A stretch of 42,031 nucleotides of DNA from Escherichia phage vB_EcoS-Ro145clw: the sequence record MG852086.2. One strand, 5' to 3'. Each line of letters begins with the position of its first letter. Position 1 is the stretch's first letter. A program made the translations under genes and the position numbers. Of the stretch, positions 2,071-40,794 are shown one piece after another. The notes below the pieces were generated by a model. That model had not been told where the DNA came from. It saw only the letters and a program-made list of their open reading frames with translations, and did not search any database.

Positions 2071-2075
2071 TACCG

Positions 2076-2091
2076 CGGCCCTTCGGGGCCG
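2076..2091 (+). other. GC stem with UUCG-type tetraloop, no U-tract (RNA stability or processing element?)
   Basis: CGGCCC TTCG GGGCCG directly after the stop of the 1720..2070 ORF; no T-run follows. Confidence 0.3.
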
Positions 2092-2106
2092 TAATAAGGA
2101 AAGGTC

Positions 2107-2286
2107 ATGGCAGATAATTATGTAATCCGCGAAAAGTACACCCACGTTGATGTTGTTGACGGTCAGGTGACGCCAGTTCGCGGTGTGGTAGAAGAGGATG
2201 AACTGGTAGCGGTTCAACCGGAGAACGAAGAAGCGCGCAACAACGGTGGTGGTGTTAAGCGTCGTCGCCGTAAGTCGGAGGAATAA
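2107..2286 (+). CDS. small hypothetical protein (59 aa), basic C-terminus
   Basis: ATG preceded by AAGGAAAGG; fills the gap between annotated ORFs; below the 60 aa cut-off of the ORF track. Confidence 0.4.
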   Translation: MADNYVIREKYTHVDVVDGQVTPVRGVVEEDELVAVQPENEEARNNGGGVKRRRRKSEE

Positions 2287-2289
2287 TTC

Positions 2290-2802: not shown

Positions 2803-2804
2803 AA

Positions 2805-3419
2805 ATGGCGAAGACTAAAACAGAGATGTTTACCCTTATAGGCGCTAATCTTCCAGATAACACCGACAAACTTATCACCCCCGCAGCATTGCGCGAGGTA
2901 ATGACGCAGATGGCCGACTCGCCTATTTACGCCACTCCGGGTGTTAAAGAGGTAGAAGTTCTCCGTGCCGCGTCAACCGTGGCACAAGCGCCTACCGCAG
3001 TAGATACGGCATTGCAGTTAACTTTCGGCTCCGCTCAGGGGAGTGCATCTGACCCGGTAATGATTAATGCTGCGGGGCTGGTTACGTTCAACACCGCAGG
3101 TAACTACGCCGTTCGCATCAAGTTACAGGCCGGGCGCACCGGGGCCAGCGGTACATCTATCCTGCTATCGCGCATCCTCGTCAACGGCGCTCAATACGGT
3201 TCCCCCGCAGCAACTAAGCTGGTAAGCGCCGACATAACAATTCCTATTGAGTCCCGCGTTGTTATTGGCCCAACCGCAGGCCAGACGTTTGCCGTTCAGA
3301 TTATGCGGGATAGCGCCGGGAGTAACTTCGGCGGCGTATATCCGCAAGCGGCTACGGTAACTGCATGGGGTACAGCACCATCTGCGCTACTGGTTATCTC
3401 GAGACTGGAGGCTGCCTGA
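2805..3419 (+). CDS. hypothetical structural protein
   Basis: 204 aa ORF in the head-tail joining block; no recognisable motif. Confidence 0.45.
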   Translation: MAKTKTEMFTLIGANLPDNTDKLITPAALREVMTQMADSPIYATPGVKEVEVLRAASTVAQAPTAVDTALQLTFGSAQGSASDPVMINAAGLVTFNTAGNYAVRIKLQAGRTGASGTSILLSRILVNGAQYGSPAATKLVSADITIPIESRVVIGPTAGQTFAVQIMRDSAGSNFGGVYPQAATVTAWGTAPSALLVISRLEAA

Positions 3420-3778
3420 TGAGCACCGATTTCAGTAAACGTATGCAAGGCGTAGGTACGCGCCTGCTAACCAAATTCGGTAGCACGGTATCTCTGGTTC
3501 GCGCTGGCTCGAAAGTGTGGGACGAAGTTCTCGGCGAATACGTCTGGTCTGCGGATGAAGTGTTGCCGTTGAAGGCCGTTCCGGTTCCTGTTAACGCAGG
3601 ACTGGTAAACGGTACGACGATTCAGGCAGGTGACATGATCGTTAAGGCTGATTACAGCGTCGTTCCGAAGATGGAAGACAAGGTGCAATTTGGCGGCGAG
3701 CAATGGTCTATCGAAGCCATTGAGAAGAAGATGGTTAATGATGATGTCGTGGCCTACTTTATCCAGGTGAGAAAATGA
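3419..3778 (+). CDS. head closure / head-tail joining protein (putative)
   Basis: Start moved to ATG at 3419 overlapping upstream stop (TGATG); about 119 aa; size and position fit a head-closure protein. Confidence 0.4.
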   Translation: MSTDFSKRMQGVGTRLLTKFGSTVSLVRAGSKVWDEVLGEYVWSADEVLPLKAVPVPVNAGLVNGTTIQAGDMIVKADYSVVPKMEDKVQFGGEQWSIEAIEKKMVNDDVVAYFIQVRK

Positions 3779-4173
3779 CACCATTTGAACAGTCTATTCA
3801 GAATTTTATAAAGAAGGCCAAAAAGAACCCTGAACTGGTGGTTCGCCAGGTCACGATTAAATTATATTCTCAGATTATAATGGCAAGTCCCGTTAAGACG
3901 GGTAGATTCAGGATGAATTGGCAGGTCAGTAATAACAAGCCAGCAACGGGTGTTTTAATAGCAGACGACCCTTCCGGGAGCAGAGCTATAGGTCGGATGA
4001 CAAATTACGTTATATCATCTCCTGAGTGGGAAAATTTCTGTTTTACAAATAATTTGCCATATGCGGAAAGGTTAGAATATGGGTACTCACAACAAGCACC
4101 TCAAGGCATGGTCCGTGTGACTGTCGCCAGATTTCAACGTCTACTCAACGAAGCTGCGGCGAGGGCAGATTGA
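3775..4173 (+). CDS. HK97 gp10-like neck/tail-completion protein
   Basis: 132 aa; ATGA overlap with upstream gene; motifs PVKTGRFRMNW and NLPYAERLEYG resemble the HK97 gp10 family; markedly AT-rich with rare AGA/AGG/ATA codons. Confidence 0.5.
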   Translation: MTPFEQSIQNFIKKAKKNPELVVRQVTIKLYSQIIMASPVKTGRFRMNWQVSNNKPATGVLIADDPSGSRAIGRMTNYVISSPEWENFCFTNNLPYAERLEYGYSQQAPQGMVRVTVARFQRLLNEAAARAD

Positions 4174-4586
4174 TGGGCTACTTTGAGGACTTAACCAAAG
4201 CGTTTGATGTGCCGTTGGTGGCCTTCGGGACCGCAAACGGCATCAGGGTTGCGCTTGAAAATATCGACGCGCCGACGTCAACCGATACGCCGTATCTGGC
4301 GAGTTACATGTTGCTGGCAGATACGGAACAGGCGGATTTGTTCTTCACCGAGCAACGCTCAGGTGTTTATCAGGTCAACATTAACTACGCGTCGGTGAAA
4401 GGTAGCGCGCCAATCAATAAAATGGCAGACTTACTTAACACGGTGTTTAAAGCAGGTAAGTCATTTTCACGTAACGACATCTGCGCCGAGGTTCAATCAG
4501 TTAGCCTGGGGCCGCTGATTGTAGAAAACGGATGGGCCAAAAGACCATTGTCAATTAACTTTATTGCATTCACCAAGAGGCTGTGA
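4173..4586 (+). CDS. tail terminator/completion protein (putative)
   Basis: 137 aa; start ATG 4173 overlapping upstream stop; SD GAGGG; positional call immediately before major tail gene. Confidence 0.4.
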   Translation: MGYFEDLTKAFDVPLVAFGTANGIRVALENIDAPTSTDTPYLASYMLLADTEQADLFFTEQRSGVYQVNINYASVKGSAPINKMADLLNTVFKAGKSFSRNDICAEVQSVSLGPLIVENGWAKRPLSINFIAFTKRL

Positions 4587-4588
4587 AT

Positions 4589-5755
4589 ATGGCTACAACT
4601 CCTTTTAAGGGCGCGAATACCGCGCAATTCTATGTGGCGGAAGTGACCCCGGGCGTAACACCAAGTAACCCGGTATGGTCGCCGTTGCGTAGCACTGGCG
4701 GCGTTCCTGCCGTAACCCGCGATGCGCTGACTTCCAACGAACTGGACGGCAGCCGTGAAACTACATCCATCCGCACTGGCAATAAGCAGGTAAGCGGGGA
4801 GTATGCCATCGAACTTAGCTCTCGTAGTCAGGATGATTTCCTGGCTGGCGCGATGACTTCTACGTGGCAGGATGGGGTAGAGATTACGGGTGCCGAAATT
4901 ACTGTCGCCCCCGCAGGTAAAACATTCACCCGCGCTGCCGGTAGCTTCATTACTGACGGTGTAGAAGTTGGTGACCTTATTGCGTTCACCGACTTAACCG
5001 GCGACAACGCAAAACCGTTTATCGTGACCGCGGTTTCTGCTCTTGTAGTTACGGGTGCGGGCATTCAGCACACGCTGACAGCAGAGACTGTAACCACCGA
5101 CGCTAAAACTGGCGATAAACTGGAAACCGGTAACGCATGTAAGACGTTCTCCATCCTGACATGGTTCAAAGGACAGTGCGGGAACCCTGACGCGTACATG
5201 TTGACCAAAGGCGTGGAAATCTCCGGTTTCACCATTGAACAGGCCGTAAACGCGATGGTGACAGGCAGCTTCCCGTTCATCGGCCTGAGTCAGGAGATTC
5301 TTACCACGCCGCCGTCTGGCTCTGATTTCTCTCAGGTGACGTTCACGGACGAGCCGTTCTCTTCTGTAGATGTGTCTGTGTTCGACGGTTCTACGCCGTT
5401 GCGTTGCGATACTCTCACTATCACCAACGATAACGGTGCTTCCGCGCAGTTCGAACTCGGCAACAGTAGCGTCGCGTTCGTGGAACGGGGGCGCGCAGCT
5501 AACACCTTTTCCATCTCCGGTAAGCTGTACGACATGACGATGATTCAGAAGTTTATCAACGAGCAGCAGGTAGAGATTAACTCTATTCTGGCGGGGGTAA
5601 ACGGGGCTATGTCTTTCAGTTTGAAACGTGCGGAACTTACGGCGGTTACGCCTGAGATTGGCGGACCTGAGTCAATCACCCAGAGCATAGAAGGACAGTC
5701 CACAGGCAATCAATATCAATCTTCTATTGTAATACAGCGTATTAGCTACGCGTAA
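4589..5755 (+). CDS. major tail (tube) protein (putative)
   Basis: 388 aa from ATG 4589 with SD AAGAGG 8 nt upstream; Thr/Ser/Gly-rich; position between completion proteins and chaperones. Confidence 0.55.
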   Translation: MATTPFKGANTAQFYVAEVTPGVTPSNPVWSPLRSTGGVPAVTRDALTSNELDGSRETTSIRTGNKQVSGEYAIELSSRSQDDFLAGAMTSTWQDGVEITGAEITVAPAGKTFTRAAGSFITDGVEVGDLIAFTDLTGDNAKPFIVTAVSALVVTGAGIQHTLTAETVTTDAKTGDKLETGNACKTFSILTWFKGQCGNPDAYMLTKGVEISGFTIEQAVNAMVTGSFPFIGLSQEILTTPPSGSDFSQVTFTDEPFSSVDVSVFDGSTPLRCDTLTITNDNGASAQFELGNSSVAFVERGRAANTFSISGKLYDMTMIQKFINEQQVEINSILAGVNGAMSFSLKRAELTAVTPEIGGPESITQSIEGQSTGNQYQSSIVIQRISYA

Positions 5756-5759
5756 GTAA

Positions 5760-5779
5760 AAGGCCCCGAAAGGGGCCTT
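5760..5779 (-). terminator. GC hairpin AAGGCCCC GAAA GGGGCCTT, terminator oriented for the minus strand
   Basis: Perfect 8 bp stem; A-run on plus strand just before it gives a U-tract on the minus strand after HNH gene 5781..6275. Confidence 0.5.
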
Positions 5780-5780
5780 A

Positions 5781-6275
5781 CTATTTACCGTGGTTCTCGT
5801 GGAACCCCAAATCTCTTTCAGCAACTCTCCTCGCGGCAACTGCATCTAGTATCGTCTTAAAGCACCCGATATGTGTTTTTACGTTATTGTTGAATATCTG
5901 CGCGTACCACAACCTTTCTTTCGCGTTCCAGTAGACTCCGGTTACTCCTGATTTATTATTACGCTGTTTTGACATATTTTTATGGTTTTCCGCATTGGAC
6001 TTTTTAGCTAAGTTAAGCGGTCTATTGTTTATTCGGTCATGGTCTAGATGGTCTATTTGATCTGACGAGGTTAGCTTATTGTTAGGATTGTTTAAGTCCC
6101 AAGCTATACGGTGCGCCGCATGCCATTTACCCCGGAAAAATATCCTTCTATATCCGTCTCGCTGGACGGTACCTGCTTCCTCTCCAGCCTTAGCCCTCCC
6201 GGACCGGGTTACTCTGTTAAATATCCTTCCTGAAATTAAGTCGTATATGAAAAATTCATTCCAATCCATAATCAT
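5781..6275 (-). CDS. HNH homing endonuclease with AP2-type DNA-binding domain
   Basis: 164 aa; HNH core GKWHAAHRIAWDL...IDHLDHDRINNRPLNL; AP2-like SGVTGVYWNAKERLWYAQI; AT-rich; SD AGGAG. Confidence 0.8.
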   Translation of the reverse strand: MIMDWNEFFIYDLISGRIFNRVTRSGRAKAGEEAGTVQRDGYRRIFFRGKWHAAHRIAWDLNNPNNKLTSSDQIDHLDHDRINNRPLNLAKKSNAENHKNMSKQRNNKSGVTGVYWNAKERLWYAQIFNNNVKTHIGCFKTILDAVAARRVAERDLGFHENHGK

Positions 6276-6288
6276 CTCCTATTGTGAT

Positions 6289-6311
6289 AAGGCCCCGAAA
6301 GGGGCCTTTTT
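6289..6311 (+). terminator. second copy of the identical hairpin AAGGCCCCGAAAGGGGCCTT followed by T5 (plus-oriented terminator)
   Basis: 20/20 identity with 5760..5779; followed by TTTTT on the plus strand. Confidence 0.5.
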
Positions 6312-6312
6312 C

Positions 6313-6543
6313 TTACTCATCAATATTACTCCTGTACTCCCGTAACTTCTCCAGACTCTCAATTGCTTCCGCTAAGTCGGTTCCTGTGTCCTTGTGCCCC
6401 CGCAAGCCCATACACAATAGCTTCTTCAATGCGTGCTGTAACGCCGGGTCGCGGATGTCGAAGGCACGTAGCACGTCGTAAACGTCTACTGTCATAGTGC
6501 TGCCGTGAGTGTTTGTCATTGTGCGGTTGTATTTTGAAGTCAT
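6313..6543 (-). CDS. hypothetical protein (76 aa)
   Basis: SD GGGGAG upstream on the minus strand; preferred over the overlapping 6359..6550 frame. Confidence 0.4.
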   Translation of the reverse strand: MTSKYNRTMTNTHGSTMTVDVYDVLRAFDIRDPALQHALKKLLCMGLRGHKDTGTDLAEAIESLEKLREYRSNIDE

Positions 6544-6556
6544 AAATCAATCTCCC

Positions 6557-7027
6557 CTACTCATGGTTTTCATGAAAACCGTATTTACTCTCGGCGGCTT
6601 TACGCGCGGCAACCGCTACATCAAAATCGTCGTAAAGCCCTAAATGCACTTGTTTGTAGTTAACTTTTATAAACGCGCGCCACTTACCCGCGGCTTTGTG
6701 GAAACTTACACCTGTAGCCCCGGATTTATTTATCTTTCTCATAGTTTTATTTTTACTGTCCCCTGTATTGTCGGTGGCGCGTAGATTTTCTATTCTATTG
6801 TCTAGCCTGTTATGGTTTATGTGGTCTATTTGAGTTTTCCTGTCTAAGTCGCATTTATTATAAAGACACCATGCTATGCGGTGGACATACACTGTTTTAC
6901 CACCCATACCGCAGCACAGATAGCCTCTTACACCAACCGTACCAACCTCAGCACCAGTAGATATCCTGGTAACCTGCCCCGTCTCAGGGCAGTATTTAAA
7001 TTGTTTTGAAACATCAAGATACTTCAT
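6557..7027 (-). CDS. HNH homing endonuclease with AP2-type DNA-binding domain (paralog of 5781..6275)
   Basis: 156 aa; HNH core HRIAWCLYN...IDHINHNRLDNRIENL; AP2-like SGATGVSFHKAAGKWRAFI; shares C-terminal GFHENH with the other HNH. Confidence 0.8.
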   Translation of the reverse strand: MKYLDVSKQFKYCPETGQVTRISTGAEVGTVGVRGYLCCGMGGKTVYVHRIAWCLYNKCDLDRKTQIDHINHNRLDNRIENLRATDNTGDSKNKTMRKINKSGATGVSFHKAAGKWRAFIKVNYKQVHLGLYDDFDVAVAARKAAESKYGFHENHE

Positions 7028-8154
7028 CTTAGCATCTCCGGTGAGATTGAAAGCCTACCTACTTCCCCGAACTCTGAACTATAGGTTATGACATTAGCGG
7101 ACCTCTTAGACATCCACCCGCCGCGAGAAGCATATGCATCTTTCGCCGCGAGAGTGCGATGTTGTTCCACTACCATATTCCTACTTTCTACAATCTTTTG
7201 ATGGTGGAGATGCCCGACATGTGCGTAACTGTACTCGCTTTCGCCAAATGCTTTTCTGAACTTAGCTATCATAATGGGTTCGACCACCTCAAACCGGCAT
7301 TTATGCCCGTGTGTAAAGAACAGTGTCGTTTTACCGTGTTGCACCATCTTGTAAACATCCGGCGACGTATCGACGAACACACGCGGCTCATTGTCGTACA
7401 GCGTACTGAACATCTCAGCCAACCAAATCATTCCGCTTTCGTCGTGGTTCCCTTGCACGATAAGCAAGCGAACATTTTTATGCTTAACCAGCGCCATACC
7501 AACAACACGGCGTACCATACGAATCATGTAGCGGACTAGTTTCTGGTAGCGCGTGTCCGCATCAAGAACATGACCGCTCGCTGGCGTAACGGCATCCAGA
7601 CTATCGAAGTGTGCGAAGTCCCCGAGCAGATTAATGACTCCTGTTCCTGCATCTGGCGCTTTCTGGAATGCCGCATCGAACCATCGGGAGAACAGGTCTT
7701 CAGCAATCTTCATATCCCAGTCGTCGCCGCTCTCGTCGGCCCAGGCCAGCATGCCGAGATGGAAATCAGATACCGTGTAAAGATTGAGTAGTTTGTCGTC
7801 ACGTTTGGCTCGAGTCGCTTTAACAGGCGCAACTGGGGTAATCTCTGACTTCATGCCTTCAACCACGGCTTTCATCAACTCAACCTGACGTTCGGCATCG
7901 GTGTCGGTCTTAACCCATTGCAACTTAGTGTTGCCGAACTCGTCTACCAGTGACGACGTTCCTTTAATCTTGTAGCCGTCTGGCACAAGGTGACTAACAT
8001 CACGACCATGACCTACGCCTTTCTTCGCCAGCTTCGCTTTACGGATACGAATAACGCGGTCTGAGATGCCGTATTTACGGGCAATGTCGATATTCTTCAT
8101 CCCGACGTTCAATTCTTCCTGTAACTGTTCGTCGGTTATTTTCTTCTGGGCCAT
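7024..8154 (-). CDS. N-terminal HTH domain fused to calcineurin-like metallophosphoesterase
   Basis: 376 aa; HTH-like IDIARKYGISDRVIRIRKAKL; MPP motifs SDFHLG, GDFAHFD, QGNHDES, THGH, HVGHLHH in canonical order; SD GAGGAAG. Confidence 0.65.
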   Translation of the reverse strand: MAQKKITDEQLQEELNVGMKNIDIARKYGISDRVIRIRKAKLAKKGVGHGRDVSHLVPDGYKIKGTSSLVDEFGNTKLQWVKTDTDAERQVELMKAVVEGMKSEITPVAPVKATRAKRDDKLLNLYTVSDFHLGMLAWADESGDDWDMKIAEDLFSRWFDAAFQKAPDAGTGVINLLGDFAHFDSLDAVTPASGHVLDADTRYQKLVRYMIRMVRRVVGMALVKHKNVRLLIVQGNHDESGMIWLAEMFSTLYDNEPRVFVDTSPDVYKMVQHGKTTLFFTHGHKCRFEVVEPIMIAKFRKAFGESEYSYAHVGHLHHQKIVESRNMVVEQHRTLAAKDAYASRGGWMSKRSANVITYSSEFGEVGRLSISPEMLR

Positions 8155-8192: not shown

Positions 8193-8384
8193 TCACTTCT
8201 CGTTAACATTCGAGTTGCACGCCCAGATTAAAATAAATACCCACGGCAGCAGAACCCAACCAAGAAACAGGTTAGCCATGAATATCGCCAACTTCGCTTT
8301 ATGGTTACGGAAATATGCAACCAGGAAAGGCGCGAAATAAGCGAGCAGTGCAAACAGAATTAAGGAAACTGGTAAACTTGACAT
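8193..8384 (-). CDS. small membrane protein, superinfection-immunity (Imm)-like family (putative)
   Basis: 63 aa from the second ATG (SD AAGGGG); two hydrophobic segments; YFAPFLVAYFRNHK...NLFLGWVLLPW resembles the Imm-type superinfection immunity family as remembered. Confidence 0.45.
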   Translation of the reverse strand: MSSLPVSLILFALLAYFAPFLVAYFRNHKAKLAIFMANLFLGWVLLPWVFILIWACNSNVNEK

Positions 8385-8414
8385 TTTAAACCCCTTCATT
8401 GTTGGTGTAAGTGA

Positions 8415-8443
8415 ATAGTACCCTATTATATTGGGGTGTGCAA
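8415..8443 (-). promoter_or_regulatory. sigma70-like promoter TTGCAC-N17-TACTAT with embedded AATAG-N4-CTATT inverted repeat (site A)
   Basis: Minus strand reads TTGCACACCCCAATATAATAGGGTACTATTCACTT; nearly identical to sites at 29385, 30614 and 40699. Confidence 0.5.
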
Positions 8444-8551
8444 GTAATGTGATAGAATAATTTTGCGCCTAGTGTCGCACACGAAAAGCGGGTGGTTCCC
8501 GTCTGGCGCATTTATCGATAACCTGTAACCTCTTAACCAAAGGATTAAAGA

Positions 8552-8971
8552 ATGAAACTTTCTGATTTTTATTTCGAAGAGAAAGCACTGGTAGGCAAGA
8601 AAATGCCGATTCTGCTGCCGAATGGCGAAGACTCCGGCGAGTGGCTTAATGTTGTAAGCCCTGATGCGGATGCCGCCGTTAAAGCGGGGCGTGCTTTCAT
8701 TATCGCGTACCGTCGCGGACTGGCGCGTTTTGAAGAACTGGAAAAAACCGCTAAAGCCTCCGGCGACTATACAGAATATAACCTGGCGATTAATGAACTG
8801 GCGGAAGACCTCAACCGGCAACTCGCGGCTGAAGTCGTAAACGGCTGGAGCTTCGACGACGAGCCTTTCTCTAAGGAAGCGTTTAACAAATTGCTCGACC
8901 AGTTCAAAGGGCTTGGAACCCAGGTAGCCGCGTTCCATAACGCTGAGCGCAAAGCATTACAGGAAAAGTAG
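8552..8971 (+). CDS. tail assembly chaperone (gpG-like, putative)
   Basis: 139 aa acidic ORF with SD AAGGA immediately upstream of the tape-measure gene; followed by a -1 frame overlapping ORF. Confidence 0.5.
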   Translation: MKLSDFYFEEKALVGKKMPILLPNGEDSGEWLNVVSPDADAAVKAGRAFIIAYRRGLARFEELEKTAKASGDYTEYNLAINELAEDLNRQLAAEVVNGWSFDDEPFSKEAFNKLLDQFKGLGTQVAAFHNAERKALQEK

Positions 8972-9336
8972 ACGCGCTGTACAGGTTCGCCACCTACGAG
9001 TTTGTGGATAAGCATAAAATCAGAGAGTTTGATTCTATAGCTGACGGACATGAACAGGCGCTTATCGCGATGGGTGTAATCGATAAGAAAAAACGTGCAG
9101 CGCGACGGGGTGGGCCAGAATGTCCGCCCCTTTTCATATCCACCTTTGAGACGTATTGCGACATTAAGTTTACGCGACACGTGCGCGAGGACGCTGTAGT
9201 ATTGTTTGCAAGAGAATCCGTTACGTGGCAAGACCTGAAAGCCTATCTCGACGTTACACAAAAACAGCTTAGCCTGTTCGAGATAGACATTATCATGGGC
9301 TTAGAAGCAATCTTTGAAGGTAGAAACCATGGCTGA
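8947..9336 (+). CDS. -1 frame extension ORF (gpT-like; candidate G-T frameshift product)
   Basis: Frame -1 relative to 8552..8971 is open from 8947 to TGA at 9334..9336; overlaps the last 8 codons of the chaperone gene; candidate slip region AGGAAAAG at 8961..8968; independent GTG at 9004 also possible. Confidence 0.4.
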   Translation, partial: AQSITGKVDALYRFATYEFVDKHKIREFDSIADGHEQALIAMGVIDKKKRAARRGGPECPPLFISTFETYCDIKFTRHVREDAVVLFARESVTWQDLKAYLDVTQKQLSLFEIDIIMGLEAIFEGRNHG

Positions 9337-11599
9337 TATCGCTAGCTTGATAGTACGAGTATCCGCAACCGGCGTCGATAAAGTCACATCACAACTGAAC
9401 GGGCTTACTAAAGCCGCAGGCGCTGCGGCTGCCGCCGTTGTCAGCCTGGAAACCGCTAAGCAGGTGTTCAGTGCGCTGGTGGACTCCCAGCGAAACTTCG
9501 ATAAGCTGAACTCCGGCCTCATCACAATGACCGGGAGTGCTGAGAACGCGGCTAAGGCTTTCAGCGTCCTGCAACAGTTCGCGAAAGAAACCCCGTACGG
9601 CCTCAACCAGGCGGTGGAAGGCTTTACTAAACTTGTAGCCCTCGGCCTGAACCCCAGCAAAGAGGCGTTAATCTCCTACGGCAACACCGCCGCTGCGATG
9701 GGTAAAGACCTTAATCAGATGATTGAGGCCGTGGCGGACGCCAGTACATTTGAATTTGAGCGACTGAAAGAGTTCGGTATTAAGTCTTCCCAACAGGCAG
9801 ATACCGTTTCGTTCACGTTCCGCGGCGTAACGACCACAGTTAAGAAGAACTCCGAAGAAATTCAGAAATACCTGCTAAACATCGGTAACACTGATTTCGC
9901 CGGGGCGATGGAAACGCGTTCGAAAACCCTTGACGGGCAGTTATCTAGCCTCGCGGACTCCTTTGACGGCCTTGTACTTGCGGTGGCGCAATCAGGTTTC
10001 GGCGACGCCGTAGGTGAGCAAGCTGCGACAGCGGAAGATGCCATCACGGCCCTAACCGATGCCATCGCGTCTAATGAGATAGCAGCCACGCTCCAGGATT
10101 GGGTGACACTGTTCAATGAATCGTTCAAGTTTATTTCTGACGCTTTGAACGATCTGGCATACGACACCGAGGACAAATCCGTGGATATGTCCGACTCGCT
10201 GGGGACTATCCCGGACGCTATTCGTGAGTGGTTGCCTGACATTCAGCAGACATTCCACGAGGTTATTGCGTGGTTCCAGCGCATTGACGATTACGCGGTC
10301 GCGTTAGGCCAGACCCTCGCCGACGTGTTCGACCCGAGCAAAACGGCAGCGCTAACATTTAAAAACCTGACCGCAGAGGCCGACGCCGCATACGCCGCCA
10401 GCATAAAACGCGCAGAGGCCGAATCACAGGCTATCACCAACAGGTCTAAGCAGCGTAAGAAAGAAATTGAGGAACAGCGCAAGCAGTATGACGAGCGCAA
10501 GAAGCAAGAAATTGACTTAGCCAGCCTTGTTAATAAAAAGAGCGGAAATGGTGGAACCGGAAATACCAACGACAAAGACGCGAAAGCCGCCGCTAAGAAA
10601 GCGGAGCAATTGCGTAAACAGGCCCAGGATTATCTCGACACTTTGGCCCGTCAGAACAACGACGAATTAAAGGCTATTGACGCACAGGAACAGCAGAAAC
10701 TGGCTAAGGCAAAAGAGTTCTACAACCAGGGCGCGTTGGCTCTGAAAGAATACGAGCAAGCAAAAACGGCTATCGTCCTCGAAGCCGGACAAGCACGGCA
10801 GGAAGAGCTGGATAAGCGAGAGAAAGAACGGCAGGAAAAGCAGCAGAAAGGTGAAGACTTCATGGCTCAGATTATGGGTCAGAATGCCGCCGAGCTTGAG
10901 CTTCTGGAAATTCAGGAACAACAAAAACTGGACGTTGCGGACCGATACCGCGAACAGAACCTTATTAATGAGGAGCAGTACCAGGCTGCGGTTAATGCCA
11001 TAAATGACCAATATGCTTTGAAGCGCGCCAACGCTACAGGTAACGCTTTCGGGATGATGGCGGATAACATGAAGGCCTCACTAGGGGAGGCGTCGTCCGC
11101 GTACAAAGCATTCGCTATTGCTCAGGCCACAATCGCCACATACACCTCCGCTATTGAGGCTTATAAATCAGCGTCCGCTATCCCCGTGATTGGCTGGGTT
11201 ATGGGGCCAATTGCCGCCGCCGCCGCCGTAGCCGCCGGTATGGCTAACATAGGTAAGATTCGTTCGGCTCGTGAACAGGGTGGTCAATTATCCGCGGGCC
11301 AGATGTCCACCATCGCTGAACGCGGTAAACCGGAGGTTATCATGCCTGCGGGGGCATCGCGTGTGCGCACCGCGCAGCAGATGAAAGAGATTATGGGGCA
11401 AAACGGCGGAAACTCCGGCGGTGACAGCGTGACAATTGTCAACAACACCACCGGGCGAGTTGATTCTGCGGTAACAGAACGTGATGACGAAGGGCGTTTA
11501 CGTATTATAATCAGTGAAACAGTATCGGCGGCGTTACAGGACAGCAACAGCGCAATCTCTAAGTCACGCCGTGCTACACGAAACCAGCCGGGGTATTAA
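9329..11599 (+). CDS. tail tape measure protein
   Basis: 756 aa from ATG 9329 (SD GAAGG); long coiled-coil middle with repeated EQQKL segments; C-terminal hydrophobic Ala/Gly-rich segment; follows chaperone pair. Confidence 0.8.
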   Translation: MADIASLIVRVSATGVDKVTSQLNGLTKAAGAAAAAVVSLETAKQVFSALVDSQRNFDKLNSGLITMTGSAENAAKAFSVLQQFAKETPYGLNQAVEGFTKLVALGLNPSKEALISYGNTAAAMGKDLNQMIEAVADASTFEFERLKEFGIKSSQQADTVSFTFRGVTTTVKKNSEEIQKYLLNIGNTDFAGAMETRSKTLDGQLSSLADSFDGLVLAVAQSGFGDAVGEQAATAEDAITALTDAIASNEIAATLQDWVTLFNESFKFISDALNDLAYDTEDKSVDMSDSLGTIPDAIREWLPDIQQTFHEVIAWFQRIDDYAVALGQTLADVFDPSKTAALTFKNLTAEADAAYAASIKRAEAESQAITNRSKQRKKEIEEQRKQYDERKKQEIDLASLVNKKSGNGGTGNTNDKDAKAAAKKAEQLRKQAQDYLDTLARQNNDELKAIDAQEQQKLAKAKEFYNQGALALKEYEQAKTAIVLEAGQARQEELDKREKERQEKQQKGEDFMAQIMGQNAAELELLEIQEQQKLDVADRYREQNLINEEQYQAAVNAINDQYALKRANATGNAFGMMADNMKASLGEASSAYKAFAIAQATIATYTSAIEAYKSASAIPVIGWVMGPIAAAAAVAAGMANIGKIRSAREQGGQLSAGQMSTIAERGKPEVIMPAGASRVRTAQQMKEIMGQNGGNSGGDSVTIVNNTTGRVDSAVTERDDEGRLRIIISETVSAALQDSNSAISKSRRATRNQPGY

Positions 11600-11602
11600 A
11601 CT

Positions 11603-12097
11603 ATGTCTTCTTTAAGGTTCCCAATGTCCCTTCGGCCAATAGTGTCGAAGGGGTACTCCCAAACGCGAGGGAGTAATATCTGGCGTACAGAAGTTCAGGG
11701 TGGCGTACCTCGCCAGGGGCGTGATACATACTTTGAACCGGTGCCGATTAGCGTTACCCTGGTCGTATCGTCACTAGGCCGCCAGGCTTTCTATAGCTTC
11801 CTGAATAACATAGACGGCGGTGCGTCGTCGTTCATCATGCCCCACGACACCGGGTTAGGTATCGAAGACCACCAGGTGCTTATTACGTCAGACATTAGTG
11901 ACAGTACTGATGACGGTAAGAACTGGGTTATTACGTTCACAGCAACAGCAGAACGCACTGCGATTCAGGAAGACACATGTCTTACGAAGAATCTTCCTGA
12001 TTTGTTCGGTTGCTATGGTGATTGTTTAGGAGGGTTCCTCAAAGCATACGGAACCGCGCAATCAACGTTTCCACGAATTTGGGACCCGATGCAATGA
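11603..12097 (+). CDS. minor tail protein, lambda gpM-like
   Basis: 164 aa; GYSQ...SVTLV...FLNNIDGG resembles lambda gpM (GYSQR...SVTLSV...FLEEHGG); follows tape measure. Confidence 0.55.
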   Translation: MSSLRFPMSLRPIVSKGYSQTRGSNIWRTEVQGGVPRQGRDTYFEPVPISVTLVVSSLGRQAFYSFLNNIDGGASSFIMPHDTGLGIEDHQVLITSDISDSTDDGKNWVITFTATAERTAIQEDTCLTKNLPDLFGCYGDCLGGFLKAYGTAQSTFPRIWDPMQ

Positions 12098-12609
12098 GCC
12101 AGGAATCAGTAGAAGCCGCATATCGCCGTAAGCTGGCTTCTAACCCTGACGGCGAAATTGACTACACGACGCTGGAGATAGTTCACCCGCTTCTTTCGAA
12201 GCGGTATTTGCTTGTTCGCGGAACTTCCGACCTAACGGCGACGTTAGAGACTGGTGAAGTCGTTACGTTTGAGGCTACGCCTATGGAGGCTAAAGGGGCC
12301 GCCAACAATAACGACATGGACCAGCGAGCATCGTTCGCATTGCCCGATATTGGAAACCAGTTAGACGATGAGATGGATAGGATACCGCCCGATAATACCG
12401 TGTTGCCTAAGTTTATATTCCGCCGTTTTGTTAGTACCGATTTGTCTTACCCGGCTGACGGGCCTGTTGTGTACGAGTTGCAGTCGATAAACCAGGAGAA
12501 GGGGTTATTCACGGCGGATGTTGGCGTTCCTATGTTGAACCAAAGAGCCACTGGCGAGTTAATGACTCCTTCAGTAATCCCATTGTTACGTGGTATTTTG
12601 TCTACATGA
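12094..12609 (+). CDS. minor tail protein (gpL-position, putative)
   Basis: ATG 12094 overlaps upstream stop (ATGA); 171 aa; positional call. Confidence 0.45.
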   Translation: MSQESVEAAYRRKLASNPDGEIDYTTLEIVHPLLSKRYLLVRGTSDLTATLETGEVVTFEATPMEAKGAANNNDMDQRASFALPDIGNQLDDEMDRIPPDNTVLPKFIFRRFVSTDLSYPADGPVVYELQSINQEKGLFTADVGVPMLNQRATGELMTPSVIPLLRGILST

Positions 12610-12971
12610 ACATTAATTCTTATACTGGTCTTCCGTATGATTTTCGCCGCCGTAATTGCTGGCACCATGTGTGTAACGTTCGCGCGGACGCGGGGCTCCC
12701 CACGCCCGAGTTTAACGTCGCTTCGCCAACACAGATTAATGATGCCTTTGAAGAAGGCCATAAAGACACTAAAGGCCTCGTACACGTAGAAACTCCGCAA
12801 AACTTCGATGTCGTTCTGATGGCAACGCGACACAGAAACCGTGTAATCTGGCACGCTGGCGTATATTATGGTGGTATGGTCAGTCATTGCGAGCTAGCTA
12901 GTCGCCAGGTACGGTTAGACCGACTGGAAGACTTGCGCGAAACTTATGCGGAGATAGAATTTTGGCGCTGA
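12606..12971 (+). CDS. small NlpC/P60-like cysteine peptidase-domain tail protein (gpK-like, putative)
   Basis: 121 aa; ATGA overlap; conserved Cys (RRRNCWHHV) and downstream His (VIWHAGVYY, MVSHCE) spaced like NlpC/P60 catalytic residues. Confidence 0.45.
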   Translation: MNINSYTGLPYDFRRRNCWHHVCNVRADAGLPTPEFNVASPTQINDAFEEGHKDTKGLVHVETPQNFDVVLMATRHRNRVIWHAGVYYGGMVSHCELASRQVRLDRLEDLRETYAEIEFWR

Positions 12972-15517
12972 TATTACACTACACCCGTAACGAAGACGGT
13001 ACTTTCGACCGCAAACGGTACAACGTACCGCCGATGGAATACGTCGTTGCTAACATCCCTGACGGGGTGCCGGTACGTATTTACCGGGGCGAGATTGGCG
13101 AGGATACGGAAGTAACGGAAGATTTCGAAGCGCTGAAAGAAGACGACGTATTCCATATTATCGAAGGTGCTGGTGGCGGTGGCGGTTTTCTCGGAAAACT
13201 GCTTGACCCATTGGGTGTGCTTAAGTTTATCACTAAACTGATTTCCCCGTCGCAGAAAACGCCTAAAACTAGTTTAGCTAACCAGCAGGCGGAGTCGCCA
13301 AACAACAACCTGACGGACCGAAACAATAAACCTCGCCCGTATGAGCGGTCGTATGATATTTGCGGCAGGGTACAGACTATCCCTAATGACCTCATGACTA
13401 CCTATAAAATATTCGATGAATCCGGCCGAATTATCGAGTATGGATACTACGACGCCGGTCGAGGTTACCTGGATATCAAAGCAGAAGACATTACTGACGG
13501 CGATACTAAAGTACAGGAGATTACAGGTACATCTGTCGCGGTGTATGCGCCGTTTACATCGCCTAACAATACAAATACTCCTCAGCTTCTGGTGGGGGAA
13601 CCTATCAATCAGAATCTTTATATAACTATCGCTTCTAATGAAGTAGACGGAGCCGTTCTTAAAGCCCGTAACGATATAAGGGTTAACCCTAGCGACACGG
13701 GCCGTGTGAGATATGACTCTGCTACAAAAATTGGATACCTGTATGATGGCACGGGGGATTCTGGCTTCGCGGAAATATTATCTGTTGGCGATACCGCGTC
13801 GTTCAATAACTTTGACGTTCCGGACGTAACAAATACCAACGGCAACTTTCGTGTTCTTTATGTCGATAACTTCGAGCTGCGGGTCGACACCGGCGGCGCG
13901 TCTAACTGGGCTGCTTTAGGTTCAACCACCTATTCACTTTCCCCGAGAAGTGACACGTGGGTGGGCCCTGTGAATACGTATGAAAGAACATTAACCGACT
14001 GGACCACCTTAAACCGCCTGGAAGTTGAACGAGTAGTTGCTAACATTGCCGCCGCGAATGGCATGTACAAGGACAACGGCAGTAAATTGCGCACCGCTGT
14101 AACTGTAGAGCTTCAATATCAGCTACTAGATGAATCCGGGGCACCGTACGGAAGCATTTACTCGAAACAGGCCACTATATCCGGGCGGTCCGCAGATTAC
14201 ACCGGGGTCACCATTTACGCCGACCTGCCCGTGCGGTCGAAAGTCAGGGTACGCGCCCGGCGTGTTACCAACCTGGACCTCGATTTCGAGGGCACCGTGG
14301 TAGACGAGGTTTCCTACATCAACCTTTACGGGCAGGTCCGCGACACTACGCCGCATTACGGCAACCGTACTACTGTACACTCTGCACGTAAGCAGACGCC
14401 GCGGGCCGCAGAGATTAAGCAGCCGCAGCTACGTATGGTCGCGACGGAGATGGTGTACAAATACCTCGGCAACGGCGTATTTGACGCGGTTATGACACCT
14501 AATACCCAAGCCGTTCAGTCGTTAATACGCCTGGCGCGGGACCCAGTAGTAGGAAACCTCAATCTCACCACGGCTAACATGGATAAGTTGTTGGCTACGC
14601 AAGCAGAGATTGAAAATTATTTCGGAAATGCTGAGGCTGGGCAGTTCTGCTACACATTCGATGATTACAAAACGACTATGCAGGACATCATCAGCACAAT
14701 AGCTGATGCTATTTTCTGCACGCCATATCGTAAAGGGCAAGACATATTACTGGATTTCGAGCGCCCTCGTATGGGGCCGGAGATGGTATTCACCCACCGC
14801 AGTAAAACAACGGCATCCGAGAGGTGGACTAGGACATTCAACGACGCTCAGGTATACGATAGTCTTAAGTTCTCCTACATCGACCCAGATACCAACGTAA
14901 AAGAGACTATTAGCATTCCAGCCGAAGGTGGTGTTAATACCGAAACGTATGACTCCAAGGGTATACGTAATTATCGCCAGGCGTACTGGGCGGCGTACCG
15001 CCGCTACCAGAAAAACCTGTTGAAGAAGGTAACGGTATCATTCACGGCGACAGAAGAAGGGATTTTTGCAATGCCTGGGCGTGCGGTAAGTGTGGTAAAA
15101 GGTTCGCGTATGGCTCCACAAGACGGCTATGTAATCGCCGTTAACGGGCTTACGCTTACTCTTTCTCGGCCGGTCGCGTTTACTCCTGGGGATGACCACT
15201 CACTGATTCTTAAGAAGCGAGACGGGGGAGTTCAAAGTGTTGCCGTTGTGCCTGGAAGCCACGACCGTGAAGTGGTTATGCTATCCGCGCCGCAGGAGGC
15301 AATTTACACGGGGAATAGCGCACTAAAAACTGAGTTTTCATTCGGCAACGAAGCAAGGCATAATGCTCAGATGATTCTTGTTTCTACAGTTGACCCCGGA
15401 GATGACAGAACAGTTAAGATTACCGGGATTAACTATGAAGCAGATTTCTATAAATACGACGGCGTCGCGCCTTTCGGTCGCGGTTTCTCCGACGGATTCA
15501 GCAACGGTTTTAGTTAA
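12962..15517 (+). CDS. tail tip / host-specificity protein with gpI-like N-terminal region
   Basis: 851 aa, TTG start with SD GGAGA; N-terminus (VRIYRGEIG...GAGGGGGFLGKLL...) resembles lambda gpI-type assembly domain; large C-terminal body; position before tailspike. Confidence 0.55.
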   Translation: MALILHYTRNEDGTFDRKRYNVPPMEYVVANIPDGVPVRIYRGEIGEDTEVTEDFEALKEDDVFHIIEGAGGGGGFLGKLLDPLGVLKFITKLISPSQKTPKTSLANQQAESPNNNLTDRNNKPRPYERSYDICGRVQTIPNDLMTTYKIFDESGRIIEYGYYDAGRGYLDIKAEDITDGDTKVQEITGTSVAVYAPFTSPNNTNTPQLLVGEPINQNLYITIASNEVDGAVLKARNDIRVNPSDTGRVRYDSATKIGYLYDGTGDSGFAEILSVGDTASFNNFDVPDVTNTNGNFRVLYVDNFELRVDTGGASNWAALGSTTYSLSPRSDTWVGPVNTYERTLTDWTTLNRLEVERVVANIAAANGMYKDNGSKLRTAVTVELQYQLLDESGAPYGSIYSKQATISGRSADYTGVTIYADLPVRSKVRVRARRVTNLDLDFEGTVVDEVSYINLYGQVRDTTPHYGNRTTVHSARKQTPRAAEIKQPQLRMVATEMVYKYLGNGVFDAVMTPNTQAVQSLIRLARDPVVGNLNLTTANMDKLLATQAEIENYFGNAEAGQFCYTFDDYKTTMQDIISTIADAIFCTPYRKGQDILLDFERPRMGPEMVFTHRSKTTASERWTRTFNDAQVYDSLKFSYIDPDTNVKETISIPAEGGVNTETYDSKGIRNYRQAYWAAYRRYQKNLLKKVTVSFTATEEGIFAMPGRAVSVVKGSRMAPQDGYVIAVNGLTLTLSRPVAFTPGDDHSLILKKRDGGVQSVAVVPGSHDREVVMLSAPQEAIYTGNSALKTEFSFGNEARHNAQMILVSTVDPGDDRTVKITGINYEADFYKYDGVAPFGRGFSDGFSNGFS

Positions 15518-29384: not shown

Positions 29385-29413
29385 TTGCATACCCCAATAT
29401 AATAGGCTACTAT
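29385..29413 (+). promoter_or_regulatory. sigma70-like promoter TTGCAT-N17-TACTAT with AATAG-GCTA-CTATT (site C)
   Basis: TTGCATACCCCAATATAATAGGCTACTATTCACTT; near-identical to site A; about 30 nt upstream of ATG 29448. Confidence 0.5.
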
Positions 29414-30613: not shown

Positions 30614-30642
30614 TTGCACACTTGAATAGAATAGGCTACTAT
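30614..30642 (+). promoter_or_regulatory. sigma70-like promoter TTGCAC-N17-TACTAT with AATAG-GCTA-CTATT (site D)
   Basis: TTGCACACTTGAATAGAATAGGCTACTATTCATTT; leader then GAGAGGAGAGACAGAG before ATG 30673. Confidence 0.5.
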
Positions 30643-40423: not shown

Positions 40424-40450
40424 AAGGCCCCATTATGGGGCCTTAGTTTT
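40424..40450. terminator. bidirectional terminator between convergent genes
   Basis: AAGGCCCC ATTAT GGGGCCTT with T-run on the plus side and A-rich on the other; variant of the recurring hairpin. Confidence 0.55.
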
Positions 40451-40673
40451 AAACTTCCACGTCTATCACCAAATCATCAGGCATGGTTATGACTATTTTA
40501 TCGTTTTCATAGAACGGGCTAAGAGGCTCATTTTCAGGCTGCAAACGTAAAGTTAGCTTTTTATCACCAAAATAATCTATGTAACGAACCCAGTACCACT
40601 CGTCGAATACCTGTACCTTTTCTCCGGGGCGTACATCTCTAGCCTTCTTTTGATTCGTAAATCTAATCGGCAT
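40449..40673 (-). CDS. hypothetical protein (74 aa), minus-strand single-gene island
   Basis: SD AGGAGG upstream; own promoter (site B) and terminator. Confidence 0.45.
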   Translation of the reverse strand: MPIRFTNQKKARDVRPGEKVQVFDEWYWVRYIDYFGDKKLTLRLQPENEPLSPFYENDKIVITMPDDLVIDVEV

Positions 40674-40698: not shown

Positions 40699-40727
40699 AA
40701 TAGTACCCTACTATATTGGGGTGTGCA
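40699..40727 (-). promoter_or_regulatory. sigma70-like promoter TTGCAC-N17-TACTAT with AGTAG-GGTA-CTATT (site B)
   Basis: Minus strand reads TTGCACACCCCAATATAGTAGGGTACTATTCAG; near-identical to site A. Confidence 0.5.
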
Positions 40728-40794
40728 AACTATTTGTTTATGTATTCCAGTTATTCCGCTCAATTGTAAATGTTGGAATAAACTATTCGAATAG

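What the first reader, a model, noticed from the sequence alone, without database searches (positions are those of the whole stretch)
8193..8384. Imm-like small membrane protein at the head of the antisense island
The 63 aa product (MSSLPVSLILFALLAYFAPFLVAYFRNHKAKLAIFMANLFLGWVLLPWVFILIWAC...) has two hydrophobic segments and a YF-P...NLFLGW pattern that I remember as characteristic of small superinfection-immunity membrane proteins. It is the first gene after an early-type promoter, which fits a superinfection-exclusion or membrane-level injection block.
Basis: partly seen in the sequence, partly recalled or inferred. Interest (0 to 1): 0.5.

Follow-up and report, generated by a model that had tools for sequence, protein, structure and literature searches.

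The report
Phage superinfection-immunity (Imm) membrane protein
This is a real, strongly conserved 63-residue membrane-protein gene of the same family as phage T4's Imm, which stops a second phage from injecting its DNA; close relatives of this phage already carry that annotation, so it is ordinary, and no one has tested the function in this phage group.

Summary
The window is Escherichia phage vB_EcoS-Ro145c2YLVW (Kagunavirus, Guernseyvirinae). The ORF at 8193..8384 (minus strand, 63 aa, with a ribosome-binding site) is a real gene: dN/dS is 0.05-0.08 over 32 alleles. It passes Pfam PF14373 Imm_superinfect (48.6 bits, cut-off 27.9) and PHROG 1039, the same families that hold T4 Imm. It keeps the two T4 Imm residues whose mutation weakens exclusion (R33/W50 = R26/W43 here). 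AlphaFold gives a confident four-helix membrane fold (pLDDT 96.6). Relatives such as K1G gp23 (about 98% identical) are already annotated "immunity to superinfection", so the call is not new.

Most likely mechanism, inferred rather than shown: an inner-membrane protein that blocks DNA entry of superinfecting phages by engaging their tape measure protein (TMP), as a 2026 preprint reports for T4 Imm. New supporting context:
- The gene sits back to back with the tail-chaperone/TMP genes in all 36 Guernseyvirinae loci examined.
- Homologues lie directly next to a TMP gene in 22 of 72 other viral loci.
- Its promoter-like element recurs in front of the phage's clusters of small genes.

Expression timing, exclusion and the target are untested. 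Interest is low to moderate.

The parts
8193..8384 (-). imm: 63-aa Imm_superinfect (PF14373) membrane protein; predicted helices 3-16, 18-25, 31-41, 45-55; basic loop at residues 26-31; R26 and W43 match T4 Imm R33 and W50
8391..8396 (-). Shine-Dalgarno AAGGGG, 6 nt before the ATG; an SD is kept in all three Imm groups (CAGGAG or GAGG in the others)
8415..8443 (-). Conserved promoter-like element TTGCAC-N17-TACTAT. Both hexamers are kept in Kagunavirus and Jerseyvirus. It is one of four near-identical copies in this genome.
8425..8453 (-). Overlapping alternative promoter match ATCACA-17-TATAAT (10 of 12). The -35 hexamer is not conserved outside Kagunavirus.
7024..8154 (-). Metallophosphoesterase / 'DNA repair exonuclease' (phrog_704). 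It starts 38 nt after the imm stop with no terminator between, is probably co-transcribed, and follows imm in all 36 Guernseyvirinae loci.
8552..8971 (+). Tail assembly chaperone gene, transcribed divergently from imm (167-nt intergenic region)
9329..11599 (+). Tape measure protein (756 aa), the proposed target of Imm by analogy with T4. Its C-terminal third is the part conserved between divergent TMP alleles.
11171..11245 (+). The only transmembrane-like hydrophobic segment of the TMP (residues 615-639, AIPVIGWVMGPIAAAAAVAAGMANIG region)
29385..29413 (+). Second copy of the promoter element, in front of a run of small plus-strand genes (the first is 64 aa, phrog_12538)
30614..30642 (+). Third copy of the promoter element, in front of a second run of small plus-strand genes (the first is 50 aa, phrog_4653)
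40700..40728 (-). Fourth copy of the promoter element, in front of a lone antisense 74-aa gene (40449..40673, phrog_8705)

Best explanation
The gene encodes a small inner-membrane protein of the T4 Imm family. It is made from its own sigma-70-type promoter, independently of the surrounding tail genes. It most likely makes the infected cell refractory to DNA injection by phages that adsorb later (superinfection exclusion). The most likely mode of action is the one just reported for T4 Imm: the turn around the invariant Trp (W43 here) and the conserved core containing R26 engage the membrane-inserting part of the incoming phage's tape measure protein. [quoted passage not shown] Shown here: the gene is real and under strong purifying selection; it belongs to the family; the residues functional in T4 are kept; the fold is confidently predicted; it has a conserved promoter; and it is genetically linked to the TMP gene. 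Inferred, not shown: membrane location and topology, the exclusion phenotype, its specificity, TMP binding, and expression timing.
For: - Family membership: PF14373 at 48.6 bits against a cut-off of 27.9 and phrog_1039 at 3e-22. T4 Imm scores in the same two families (58.2 bits; 6.6e-32). Direct BLASTP against T4 Imm gives 26% identity over 54 residues, E = 8e-10.
- Functional residues: bioRxiv 10.64898/2026.03.06.709160 reports that T4 Imm co-purifies with a TMP (gp29) fragment, was reconstructed with it by cryo-EM, and loses activity with W50A and R33A. These residues align to W43 and R26 here and are nearly invariant in the family.
- Fold: the AF2 model has pLDDT 96.6 and pTM 0.80 with four short helices. 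The only viral fold matches with probability 1.00 are four proteins named superinfection-immunity and one unnamed entry.
- Selection: dN/dS is 0.05-0.08.
- Linkage to the TMP gene: the arrangement TMP<-TAC<-|->imm->MPE is found in all 36 Guernseyvirinae loci in which these genes are present; a few loci are cut at a contig end. The same divergent arrangement occurs in Swiduovirus swi2, whose TMP shows almost no sequence similarity to this one. A similar layout occurs in Klebsiella phage KP591P1, whose record ends before any TMP gene.
- Wider survey: among 72 other viral loci with a homologue, 20 have a TMP_3-type TMP, all within 2.3 kb and 19 within 735 nt, with none at 2.5-8 kb. Two more have a lambda-type TMP starting about 50 nt downstream.
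- Plausible target region: the TMP C-terminal third, including its single hydrophobic segment, is the part conserved (66-100%) across TMP alleles that otherwise share about 53% identity.
- Precedent: HK97 gp15, an unrelated exclusion protein whose inhibition depends on the incoming phage's tail region, is likewise encoded between the chaperone and TMP genes (PMC3594210; the T4 preprint, describes it as interacting with the TMP).
- Not the lysis system: the phage group has its own holins, endolysin and spanins elsewhere.
Against: - No exclusion experiment exists for any Guernseyvirinae Imm.
- T4 gp29 and this TMP share no detectable sequence similarity, so the T4 interface cannot simply be transferred.
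- The Imm core is almost invariant across Kagunavirus and Jerseyvirus, while the TMP alleles differ by about 47%. Recombinants exist: L012 and L024 carry the 'wrong' Imm N-terminal type for their TMP allele, and L009 has a different TMP C-terminus with a 98%-identical Imm. There is therefore no allele-specific pairing.
- The family has at least 5354 clusters at 50% identity with a very conserved core. That fits a conserved partner or a structural constraint at least as well as it fits fast-evolving phage targets.
- Homologues occur in phages without a tape measure protein (N4-like Moovirus), and about 70% of surveyed loci have no TMP nearby.
- The only transcriptome places the orthologue in a late-peaking class.
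- The T4 mechanism itself rests on a preprint with a low-resolution complex.
Confidence: 0.6

Rival explanations
1. It excludes superinfecting phages, but it does so by acting on a host inner-membrane component needed for DNA entry (a channel or receptor in the style of ManYZ or PtsG), or on the bilayer itself, not on the tape measure protein.
For: The core sequence is extremely conserved across thousands of bacterial and phage homologues and does not track TMP divergence or TMP allele swaps. Homologues exist in N4-like podoviruses that have no TMP. No sequence similarity links the T4 TMP and the Kagunavirus TMP.
Against: T4 Imm co-purifies with the TMP fragment, and a point mutant at the interface loses activity (preprint). 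The recurrent placement of imm directly beside TMP genes of at least two Pfam TMP families is hard to explain if the target were a host protein.
Confidence: 0.2
2. It is a membrane-stabilising or lysis-timing factor: it protects against lysis from without or 'secondary traumatisation', or has holin/antiholin-like activity, rather than blocking DNA entry.
For: [quoted passage not shown] The Kagunavirus K1B4 paper lists the orthologue among late-peaking genes and links it to lysis.
Against: There is no holin family hit in Pfam or PHROGs. The phage group has two holins, an endolysin and spanins elsewhere. The gene is not in the lysis cassette. The T4 effects on lysis can be a consequence of blocked injection.
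Confidence: 0.12
3. It works with the downstream metallophosphoesterase and repair genes of the same operon, for example as a membrane anchor or regulator, and has nothing to do with superinfection.
For: imm and the metallophosphoesterase gene are adjacent, probably co-transcribed, and co-occur in all 36 Guernseyvirinae loci.
Against: Outside Guernseyvirinae the partner that recurs is the TMP gene, not a phosphoesterase. T4 Imm acts alone from a plasmid. The rest of the island is variable: polynucleotide kinase and ATPase in K1G, HNH endonucleases here.
Confidence: 0.03

Closest known systems
Phage T4 Imm (UniProt P08986; PF14373 Imm_superinfect; phrog_1039)
   Same: Same Pfam and PHROG families. 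Both are small proteins with two hydrophobic segments separated by a basic loop. They share the YxxPxxxAxxR ... (L/F)xW ... W ... W core, including the residues important in T4 (R33/W50 = R26/W43). Both are expressed by a virulent phage.
   Different: Only 26% identical. This protein is 63 aa against 83 aa and lacks T4's hydrophilic C-terminal tail of about 20 residues. It has Pro47 where T4 and nearly all family members have Gly. It is closer to the family consensus than T4 Imm is (H28, N38 and G42 are kept here but not in T4). It belongs to a siphovirus whose TMP is unrelated in sequence to gp29. The gene lies next to the TMP gene, whereas T4 imm lies between genes 43 and 42, far from gene 29.
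K1G gp23 and the SETP3/Jerseyvirus orthologues annotated 'immunity to superinfection'
   Same: Orthologues at the same position, 94-100% identical within the K1G-like group and 63-77% identical in Jerseyvirus.
   Different: Nothing substantive. In this phage's own GenBank and RefSeq records the gene is only 'hypothetical protein'. None of the annotations rests on an experiment.
HK97 gp15 (YebO-like superinfection exclusion moron)
   Same: A small inner-membrane protein that blocks genome entry. Its inhibition depends on the tail region of the incoming phage, and the T4 preprint describes it as interacting with the TMP. [quoted passage not shown]
   Different: No sequence relationship: nothing matched beyond the five families listed, none of them YebO-like. 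HK97 gp15 is expressed from a prophage, whereas this phage group is described as lytic.
[quoted passage not shown]
   Same: The proposed logic is the same: a small polytopic inner-membrane protein that intercepts an incoming pore-forming helical domain. In both cases the immunity gene is kept next to the gene for the pore-former.
   Different: This is an analogy only, drawn by the T4 preprint. There is no homology and no structural match.
T5 Llp and Cor-type exclusion proteins
   Same: Phage-encoded exclusion acting at the cell envelope.
   Different: Those are outer-membrane lipoproteins that inactivate the receptor (FhuA). This protein has no lipobox or signal peptide and is predicted to be integral to the inner membrane.

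Membership tests
PF14373 Imm_superinfect / phrog_1039 (T4 Imm family) | Profile match above the curated threshold over the whole 42-position domain | tested here: met
   48.6 bits against a gathering cut-off of 27.9, covering profile positions 2-42 of 42. phrog_1039 E = 3.3e-22. T4 Imm scores 58.2 bits and 6.6e-32 in the same models.
PF14373 Imm_superinfect / phrog_1039 (T4 Imm family) | Small protein with two hydrophobic segments separated by a short basic loop | tested here: met
   63 aa. Hydrophobic residues 4-25 and 32-56. Loop R26-N-H-K-A-K31.
PF14373 Imm_superinfect / phrog_1039 (T4 Imm family) | Conserved core residues, including those whose mutation reduces T4 exclusion (R33, W50) | tested here: met
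   R26 and W43 align to R33 and W50 and are at least 90% conserved among 120 family members. One departure: Pro47 in place of the usual Gly, in all Guernseyvirinae.
PF14373 Imm_superinfect / phrog_1039 (T4 Imm family) | Shared predicted fold | tested here: met
   AF2 pLDDT 96.6. The top five Foldseek matches in BFVD have probability 1.00 and query TM-scores of 0.68-0.77; four are named superinfection-immunity proteins and one is unnamed. E-values are weak (7e-3 to 7e-2) because the protein is short. No solved structure of the family exists in the PDB copy.
PF14373 Imm_superinfect / phrog_1039 (T4 Imm family) | Inner-membrane location with the N-terminus in the periplasm | not testable with these tools
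   Only hydropathy and the positive-inside rule are available. The original topology paper (Lu et al. 1993) could not be read.
PF14373 Imm_superinfect / phrog_1039 (T4 Imm family) | Confers exclusion of superinfecting phage at the DNA-entry step when expressed alone | not testable with these tools
   Needs plating and DNA-entry assays. No published test for Guernseyvirinae was found.
PF14373 Imm_superinfect / phrog_1039 (T4 Imm family) | Binds the tape measure protein of the excluded phage | tested here: inconclusive
   Only indirect evidence: the gene is adjacent to TMP genes in Guernseyvirinae, in Swiduovirus and in 22 of 72 other loci. There is no allele-specific co-variation.
PF14373 Imm_superinfect / phrog_1039 (T4 Imm family) | Expressed early in infection | tested here: inconclusive
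   It has its own conserved sigma-70-like promoter, shared with the small-gene clusters, and the same orientation as the replication genes. The K1B4 transcriptome, however, lists the orthologue as late-peaking.
Holins / antiholins | Match to a holin family, or a position in the lysis cassette | tested here: not met
   No holin model appears among the Pfam or PHROG hits. Holins, endolysin and spanins are encoded elsewhere.
Known anti-phage defence systems (PADLOC) and NCBIfam named families | Profile match | tested here: not met
   No PADLOC families matched. The only NCBIfam hit is noise at 9.2 bits against a cut-off of 90.

The most novel reading that the evidence does not exclude
In siphoviruses and their prophages, Imm-family proteins are dedicated blockers of the tape-measure-protein membrane channel. 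They are kept genetically coupled to the TMP gene: directly upstream of it, between the chaperone and the TMP, or back to back with the chaperone/TMP operon. The arrangement would parallel colicin and immunity gene pairs. The very conserved Imm core would then recognise a conserved structural feature of the membrane-inserting TMP region, rather than a lineage-specific sequence. That would make the family a general probe for how long-tailed phages cross the inner membrane.
Probability: 0.4. Interest if true: 0.55.

Novelty: already known. Interest (0 to 1): 0.3.

Why it matters
The call itself only upgrades a 'hypothetical protein' label in one phage record. The family is of current interest because the T4 member has just been reported to bind the tape measure protein. 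Kagunavirus and Jerseyvirus phages are small, tractable and used in phage therapy and biocontrol, where exclusion between cocktail members affects efficacy. If the siphovirus Imm also targets the TMP, three things would give a simple genetic system for studying DNA passage through the inner membrane. These are the tight gene linkage seen here, the natural Imm/TMP recombinants (L009, L012, L024), and the conserved TMP C-terminal membrane segment. They would also help predict which phages in a cocktail exclude each other.

Tried and rejected
- NCBIfam and PADLOC scans gave nothing.
- A profile search of PDB sequences and a Foldseek search of PDB gave no relative, so no experimental structure can be used.
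- An Rfam scan of the whole window gave nothing.
- The word-indexed homologue search returned only 9 clusters. The exhaustive search was needed for a useful alignment.
- T4 Imm could not be included in the structure job.
- The classic T4 imm papers (Lu & Henning 1989; Lu et al. 1993) are not held, so T4 topology is cited second-hand from the preprint.
- I looked for Imm-TMP co-variation. The Imm N-terminal type (MSSLPV.. versus MTGITM..) mostly follows the TMP allele, but exceptions L012 and L024 show this is linkage, not specificity.
- I tested whether a GG..SAG....E.G.PE motif after the TMP hydrophobic segment is common to Imm-adjacent TMPs. It appears in only 4 of 19 siphovirus-type TMPs checked and not in T4 gp29, so I dropped it.
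- Clustering the surveyed loci by Imm identity was too coarse, because the core is too conserved: 5 of 36 clusters were TMP-adjacent, P = 0.03 at a 5% null.
- My first near/far comparison was biased by truncated ORFs. I redid it with open-ended reading frames and with TMP-based clustering.
- The generic promoter scan of the region is not above chance (5 sites found, 5.4 expected). The promoter claim rests on conservation and on the repeated element instead.
- The 76-aa ORF at 6313..6543 is not a remnant of K1G's ATP-binding protein: BLASTP found no alignment.

Full report
**Identity of the window.** A 2.4-kb stretch around the finding is 100% identical to Escherichia phage vB_EcoS-Ro145c2YLVW (MH051334 / NC_073322; host STEC O145). 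It is 86-95% identical to many Kagunavirus phages of the subfamily Guernseyvirinae. In that record the gene is 'hypothetical protein'. In K1G (RefSeq), P AB-2017, EM1, Bas74 and others the orthologue is annotated 'superinfection immunity protein' or 'immunity to superinfection'.

**The observation.**
- The ORF lies on the minus strand at 8193..8384 and gives exactly the 63-aa product quoted.
- An AAGGGG Shine-Dalgarno sequence sits 6 nt upstream (8391..8396).
- A longer 68-aa reading from ATG 8399 is excluded, because three relatives have a stop codon just upstream of the MSSLP start.
- Hydropathy shows two hydrophobic stretches (4-25 and 32-56) separated by R26-N-H-K-A-K31.
- I compared 32 distinct alleles from 36 IMG/VR Guernseyvirinae loci. 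dN/dS is 0.05 within the K1G-like group and 0.08 over all pairs, while synonymous sites approach saturation between genera. This is a genuine, strongly constrained protein-coding gene.

**What it is.**
- Pfam PF14373 (Imm_superinfect) matches at 48.6 bits (cut-off 27.9, E = 7.5e-13) over the whole domain. PHROG 1039 'immunity to superinfection' matches at 3.3e-22.
- I fetched T4 imm from NC_000866. It falls in the same Pfam and PHROG families and aligns directly with this protein (26% identity over 54 residues, E = 8e-10).
- An exhaustive HMMER search finds 5354 cluster representatives (50% identity clusters) at E <= 1e-3, so the family is very large.
- In alignments of 80-120 members the consensus is YFxPxxVAxxRxHxxxLAIFxLNLFLGWTxxGWVxALVWAC. 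P19 is invariant, and Y16, F17, A23, R26, H28, I34, N38, G42, W43, W48 and W54 are at least 90% conserved.
- The Guernseyvirinae proteins fit this consensus better than T4 Imm does, except for Pro47 in place of the usual Gly.
- With this alignment, AlphaFold2 gives a very confident model (pLDDT 96.6, pTM 0.80) with helices 3-16, 18-25, 31-41 and 45-55. Its only meaningful fold matches in the viral library (probability 1.00) are four proteins named superinfection-immunity and one unnamed entry.
- No relative has a solved structure. There is no hit in NCBIfam or PADLOC.

**Variation within the subfamily.** There are three Imm groups:
- K1G-like: MSSLPVSLILFALLA..
- ST20-like: MTGITMFFLIIIVLV..
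- Jerseyvirus (59 aa): M(S/G)V.IGIIAF..

They differ almost completely in the first helix. From Y16 to V60 the two Kagunavirus groups are nearly identical and the Jerseyvirus group differs at only a few positions. Only hydrophobicity seems required of helix 1, while the core is tightly constrained.

**How it probably works.**
- A 2026 preprint (bioRxiv 10.64898/2026.03.06.709160) reports that T4 Imm co-purifies with a membrane fragment of the T4 tape measure protein gp29 and was reconstructed with it by cryo-EM.
[quoted passage not shown] W50A and R33A reduce exclusion.
[quoted passage not shown] - By homology, I therefore take the most likely function to be exclusion of superinfecting phage at the DNA-entry step, probably through the incoming TMP.
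- This is inference. The TMPs of T4 and of this phage have no detectable sequence similarity.

**Evidence from gene position.**
- In all 36 Guernseyvirinae loci in which the genes are present, the order is TMP <- chaperone <- | -> imm -> metallophosphoesterase.
- The rest of the antisense island varies: polynucleotide kinase plus ATPase in K1G, two HNH endonucleases and a 76-aa ORF here.
- The same back-to-back arrangement of imm with a DUF6246 gene and the TMP gene occurs in Swiduovirus swi2. A similar layout occurs in Klebsiella phage KP591P1, whose record ends before any TMP gene. The swi2 TMP is essentially unrelated in sequence to this one.
- The arrangement is not found in T4, in Obolenskvirus or in the N4-like Moovirus.
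- I then surveyed 72 further, diverse viral loci that carry a homologue, with 8-kb flanks. A TMP profile finds a TMP_3-type TMP in 20 of them. All 20 are within 2.3 kb of imm, 19 are within 735 nt, and none lies at 2.5-8 kb.
- Two more loci have lambda-type TMPs starting about 50 nt downstream of imm. Pfam confirms the TMP calls in aggregate.
- If a TMP were placed at random within the sequenced flanks, 38% would fall in the near zone. That gives P of about 4e-9 for 20 loci. The loci are not independent, and for about 8 independent TMP lineages P is about 4e-4.
- The arrangements include imm -> TMP, imm -> chaperone -> TMP, divergent and convergent.
- HK97 gp15 is an unrelated exclusion protein whose inhibition depends on the incoming phage's tail region, and the T4 preprint describes it as interacting with the TMP. 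It is also encoded between the chaperone and TMP genes (PMC3594210). A further unrelated TMP-directed exclusion protein has been described in mycobacteriophages.
- This linkage is the main new support for a TMP-directed mechanism in siphoviruses.

**Limits of that argument.**
- Kagunavirus carries two TMP alleles that share about 53% identity. The Imm N-terminal type usually follows the allele, but L012 and L024 are recombinants. L009 combines a 98%-identical Imm with a TMP that has a different C-terminal region. There is thus no allele-specific pairing.
- If Imm binds the TMP, it must bind something conserved. The C-terminal third of the TMP is indeed the conserved part (66-100% against 13-36% in the middle). 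It contains the single hydrophobic segment (residues 615-639) preceded by Ala-rich amphipathic sequence.
- About 70% of the surveyed loci have no TMP nearby, and the N4-like podoviruses that carry a homologue have no TMP at all. TMP binding therefore cannot be the universal mode of action of the family.
- A host-target model remains a serious rival.

**Expression.**
- The 167-nt intergenic region is far more conserved across genera than synonymous sites are.
- Two overlapping sigma-70-like matches precede imm: ATCACA-17-TATAAT (10 of 12) and TTGCAC-17-TACTAT. Only the second has both hexamers conserved in Jerseyvirus.
- This second match is part of a conserved block of about 45 nt that occurs four times in the genome. 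The sites are 8415..8443 (-), 29385..29413 (+), 30614..30642 (+) and 40700..40728 (-). For the degenerate pattern 0.33 matches are expected by chance, and none for the 29-mer with up to 3 mismatches.
- Each copy is followed by a Shine-Dalgarno sequence and the ATG of a small gene. K1G has three copies at the equivalent sites.
- imm therefore shares a promoter class with the two rightward clusters of small genes of unknown function. It is oriented like the replication genes rather than the late genes.
- The one available Kagunavirus transcriptome classifies the orthologue as peaking at 110-120 min, with DNA polymerase and methylases. The latent period in that culture was 30 min.
- That transcriptome shows the gene is not co-regulated with the flanking tail genes, but it cannot settle the timing.

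**Rivals considered.**
- Holin or antiholin-like role: unlikely. No holin family matches, and the phage group has a complete lysis set elsewhere.
- Functional tie to the downstream phosphoesterase: unlikely. Outside this subfamily the recurring neighbour is the TMP gene, not a phosphoesterase.
- Spurious ORF: excluded by the dN/dS values.

**Verdict.** The gene is an ordinary member of a known family, already annotated in sister phages, so novelty is low. What this analysis adds:
- the functional residues defined in T4 are conserved here;
- the fold is confidently predicted;
- the imm-TMP gene linkage is recurrent across viral lineages;
- the promoter belongs to a repeated class in this genome.

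Function, specificity, target and timing all remain to be tested.

Noticed in passing
window 8415..8443 (-), 29385..29413 (+), 30614..30642 (+), 40700..40728 (-); L045 (K1G) 14753, 37043, 38366: A conserved promoter-like element of about 45 nt (TTGCAC-ACCCCAATATAATAGGG-TACTAT-TCACTTA) occurs four times in this genome. Each copy lies just upstream of a small gene. K1G has three copies at the equivalent sites. The spacer is as conserved as the hexamers, which suggests more than plain sigma-70 recognition, for example a regulator site.
   Followed up: partly
window 8465..8509 (+): A conserved structured element lies in the imm / tail-chaperone intergenic region: an outer 5-bp stem enclosing two hairpins. 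On the plus strand, 12 of the 14 pairs stay paired in all 31 distinct Guernseyvirinae sequences, and the other two each fail in a single sequence. Changes include GC<->CG, UA<->GC and G-C<->G-U. RNAalifold energy is -19.6 on the plus strand against -10.7 on the minus strand. The element begins right after a plus-strand extended -10 (TGATAGAAT, 8450..8458), so it would be the 5' end of the chaperone/TMP mRNA. There is no Rfam family.
   Followed up: partly
L053-L124 (IMG/VR loci), e.g. L097:1698-1913 with TMP 1971-6422; L104:7980-8330 with TMP 8374-13743; L110:7938-8141 with TMP 4984-7893: Imm homologues sit immediately beside tape-measure genes in 22 of 72 diverse viral loci. Two Pfam TMP families and several gene orientations are represented. 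No TMP was detected further away within 8 kb.
   Followed up: yes
L083:7941-8291, L104:7980-8330, L079:7521-8189: Some homologues carry extra domains. Two have a C-terminal SHOCT-like amphipathic tail (..KLE.LA.L.ERG.(L/I)T.EEF..EK..(I/L)L). One is a 222-aa form with a large N-terminal extension (apparently with a signal peptide) in front of the Imm core.
   Followed up: no
window 5781..7027 (-): Downstream of the metallophosphoesterase, this phage has two HNH_3 homing-endonuclease genes (6557..7027, with an AP2-like tail, and 5781..6275) and a 76-aa phrog_2452 ORF (6313..6543). K1G has polynucleotide kinase and an ATP-binding protein at this position. The leftmost HNH gene lies beyond a perfect palindromic hairpin (6289..6308) and is absent from most relatives.
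   Followed up: partly
window 40449..40673 (-): A lone antisense 74-aa gene (phrog_8705, function unknown) has its own copy of the repeated promoter. It is inserted between the head-decoration gene and the spanin genes. K1G has no gene at this position, so it looks like a moron.
   Followed up: partly
L009, L012, L024 (IMG/VR Kagunavirus loci): Kagunavirus carries two very different chaperone/TMP alleles (about 53% identity; one is Jerseyvirus-like), with recombination breakpoints close to imm. L009 has a third, mosaic TMP with a different C-terminal membrane region. These are natural material for testing Imm specificity.
   Followed up: partly
PMC12645636 and PMC9825357 (literature): Two genome papers describe the Kagunavirus Imm orthologue as 'involved in cell lysis' and 'likely to be involved in gene regulation'. 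Neither statement is supported by the sources they cite, so the annotation has drifted in the literature.
   Followed up: yes
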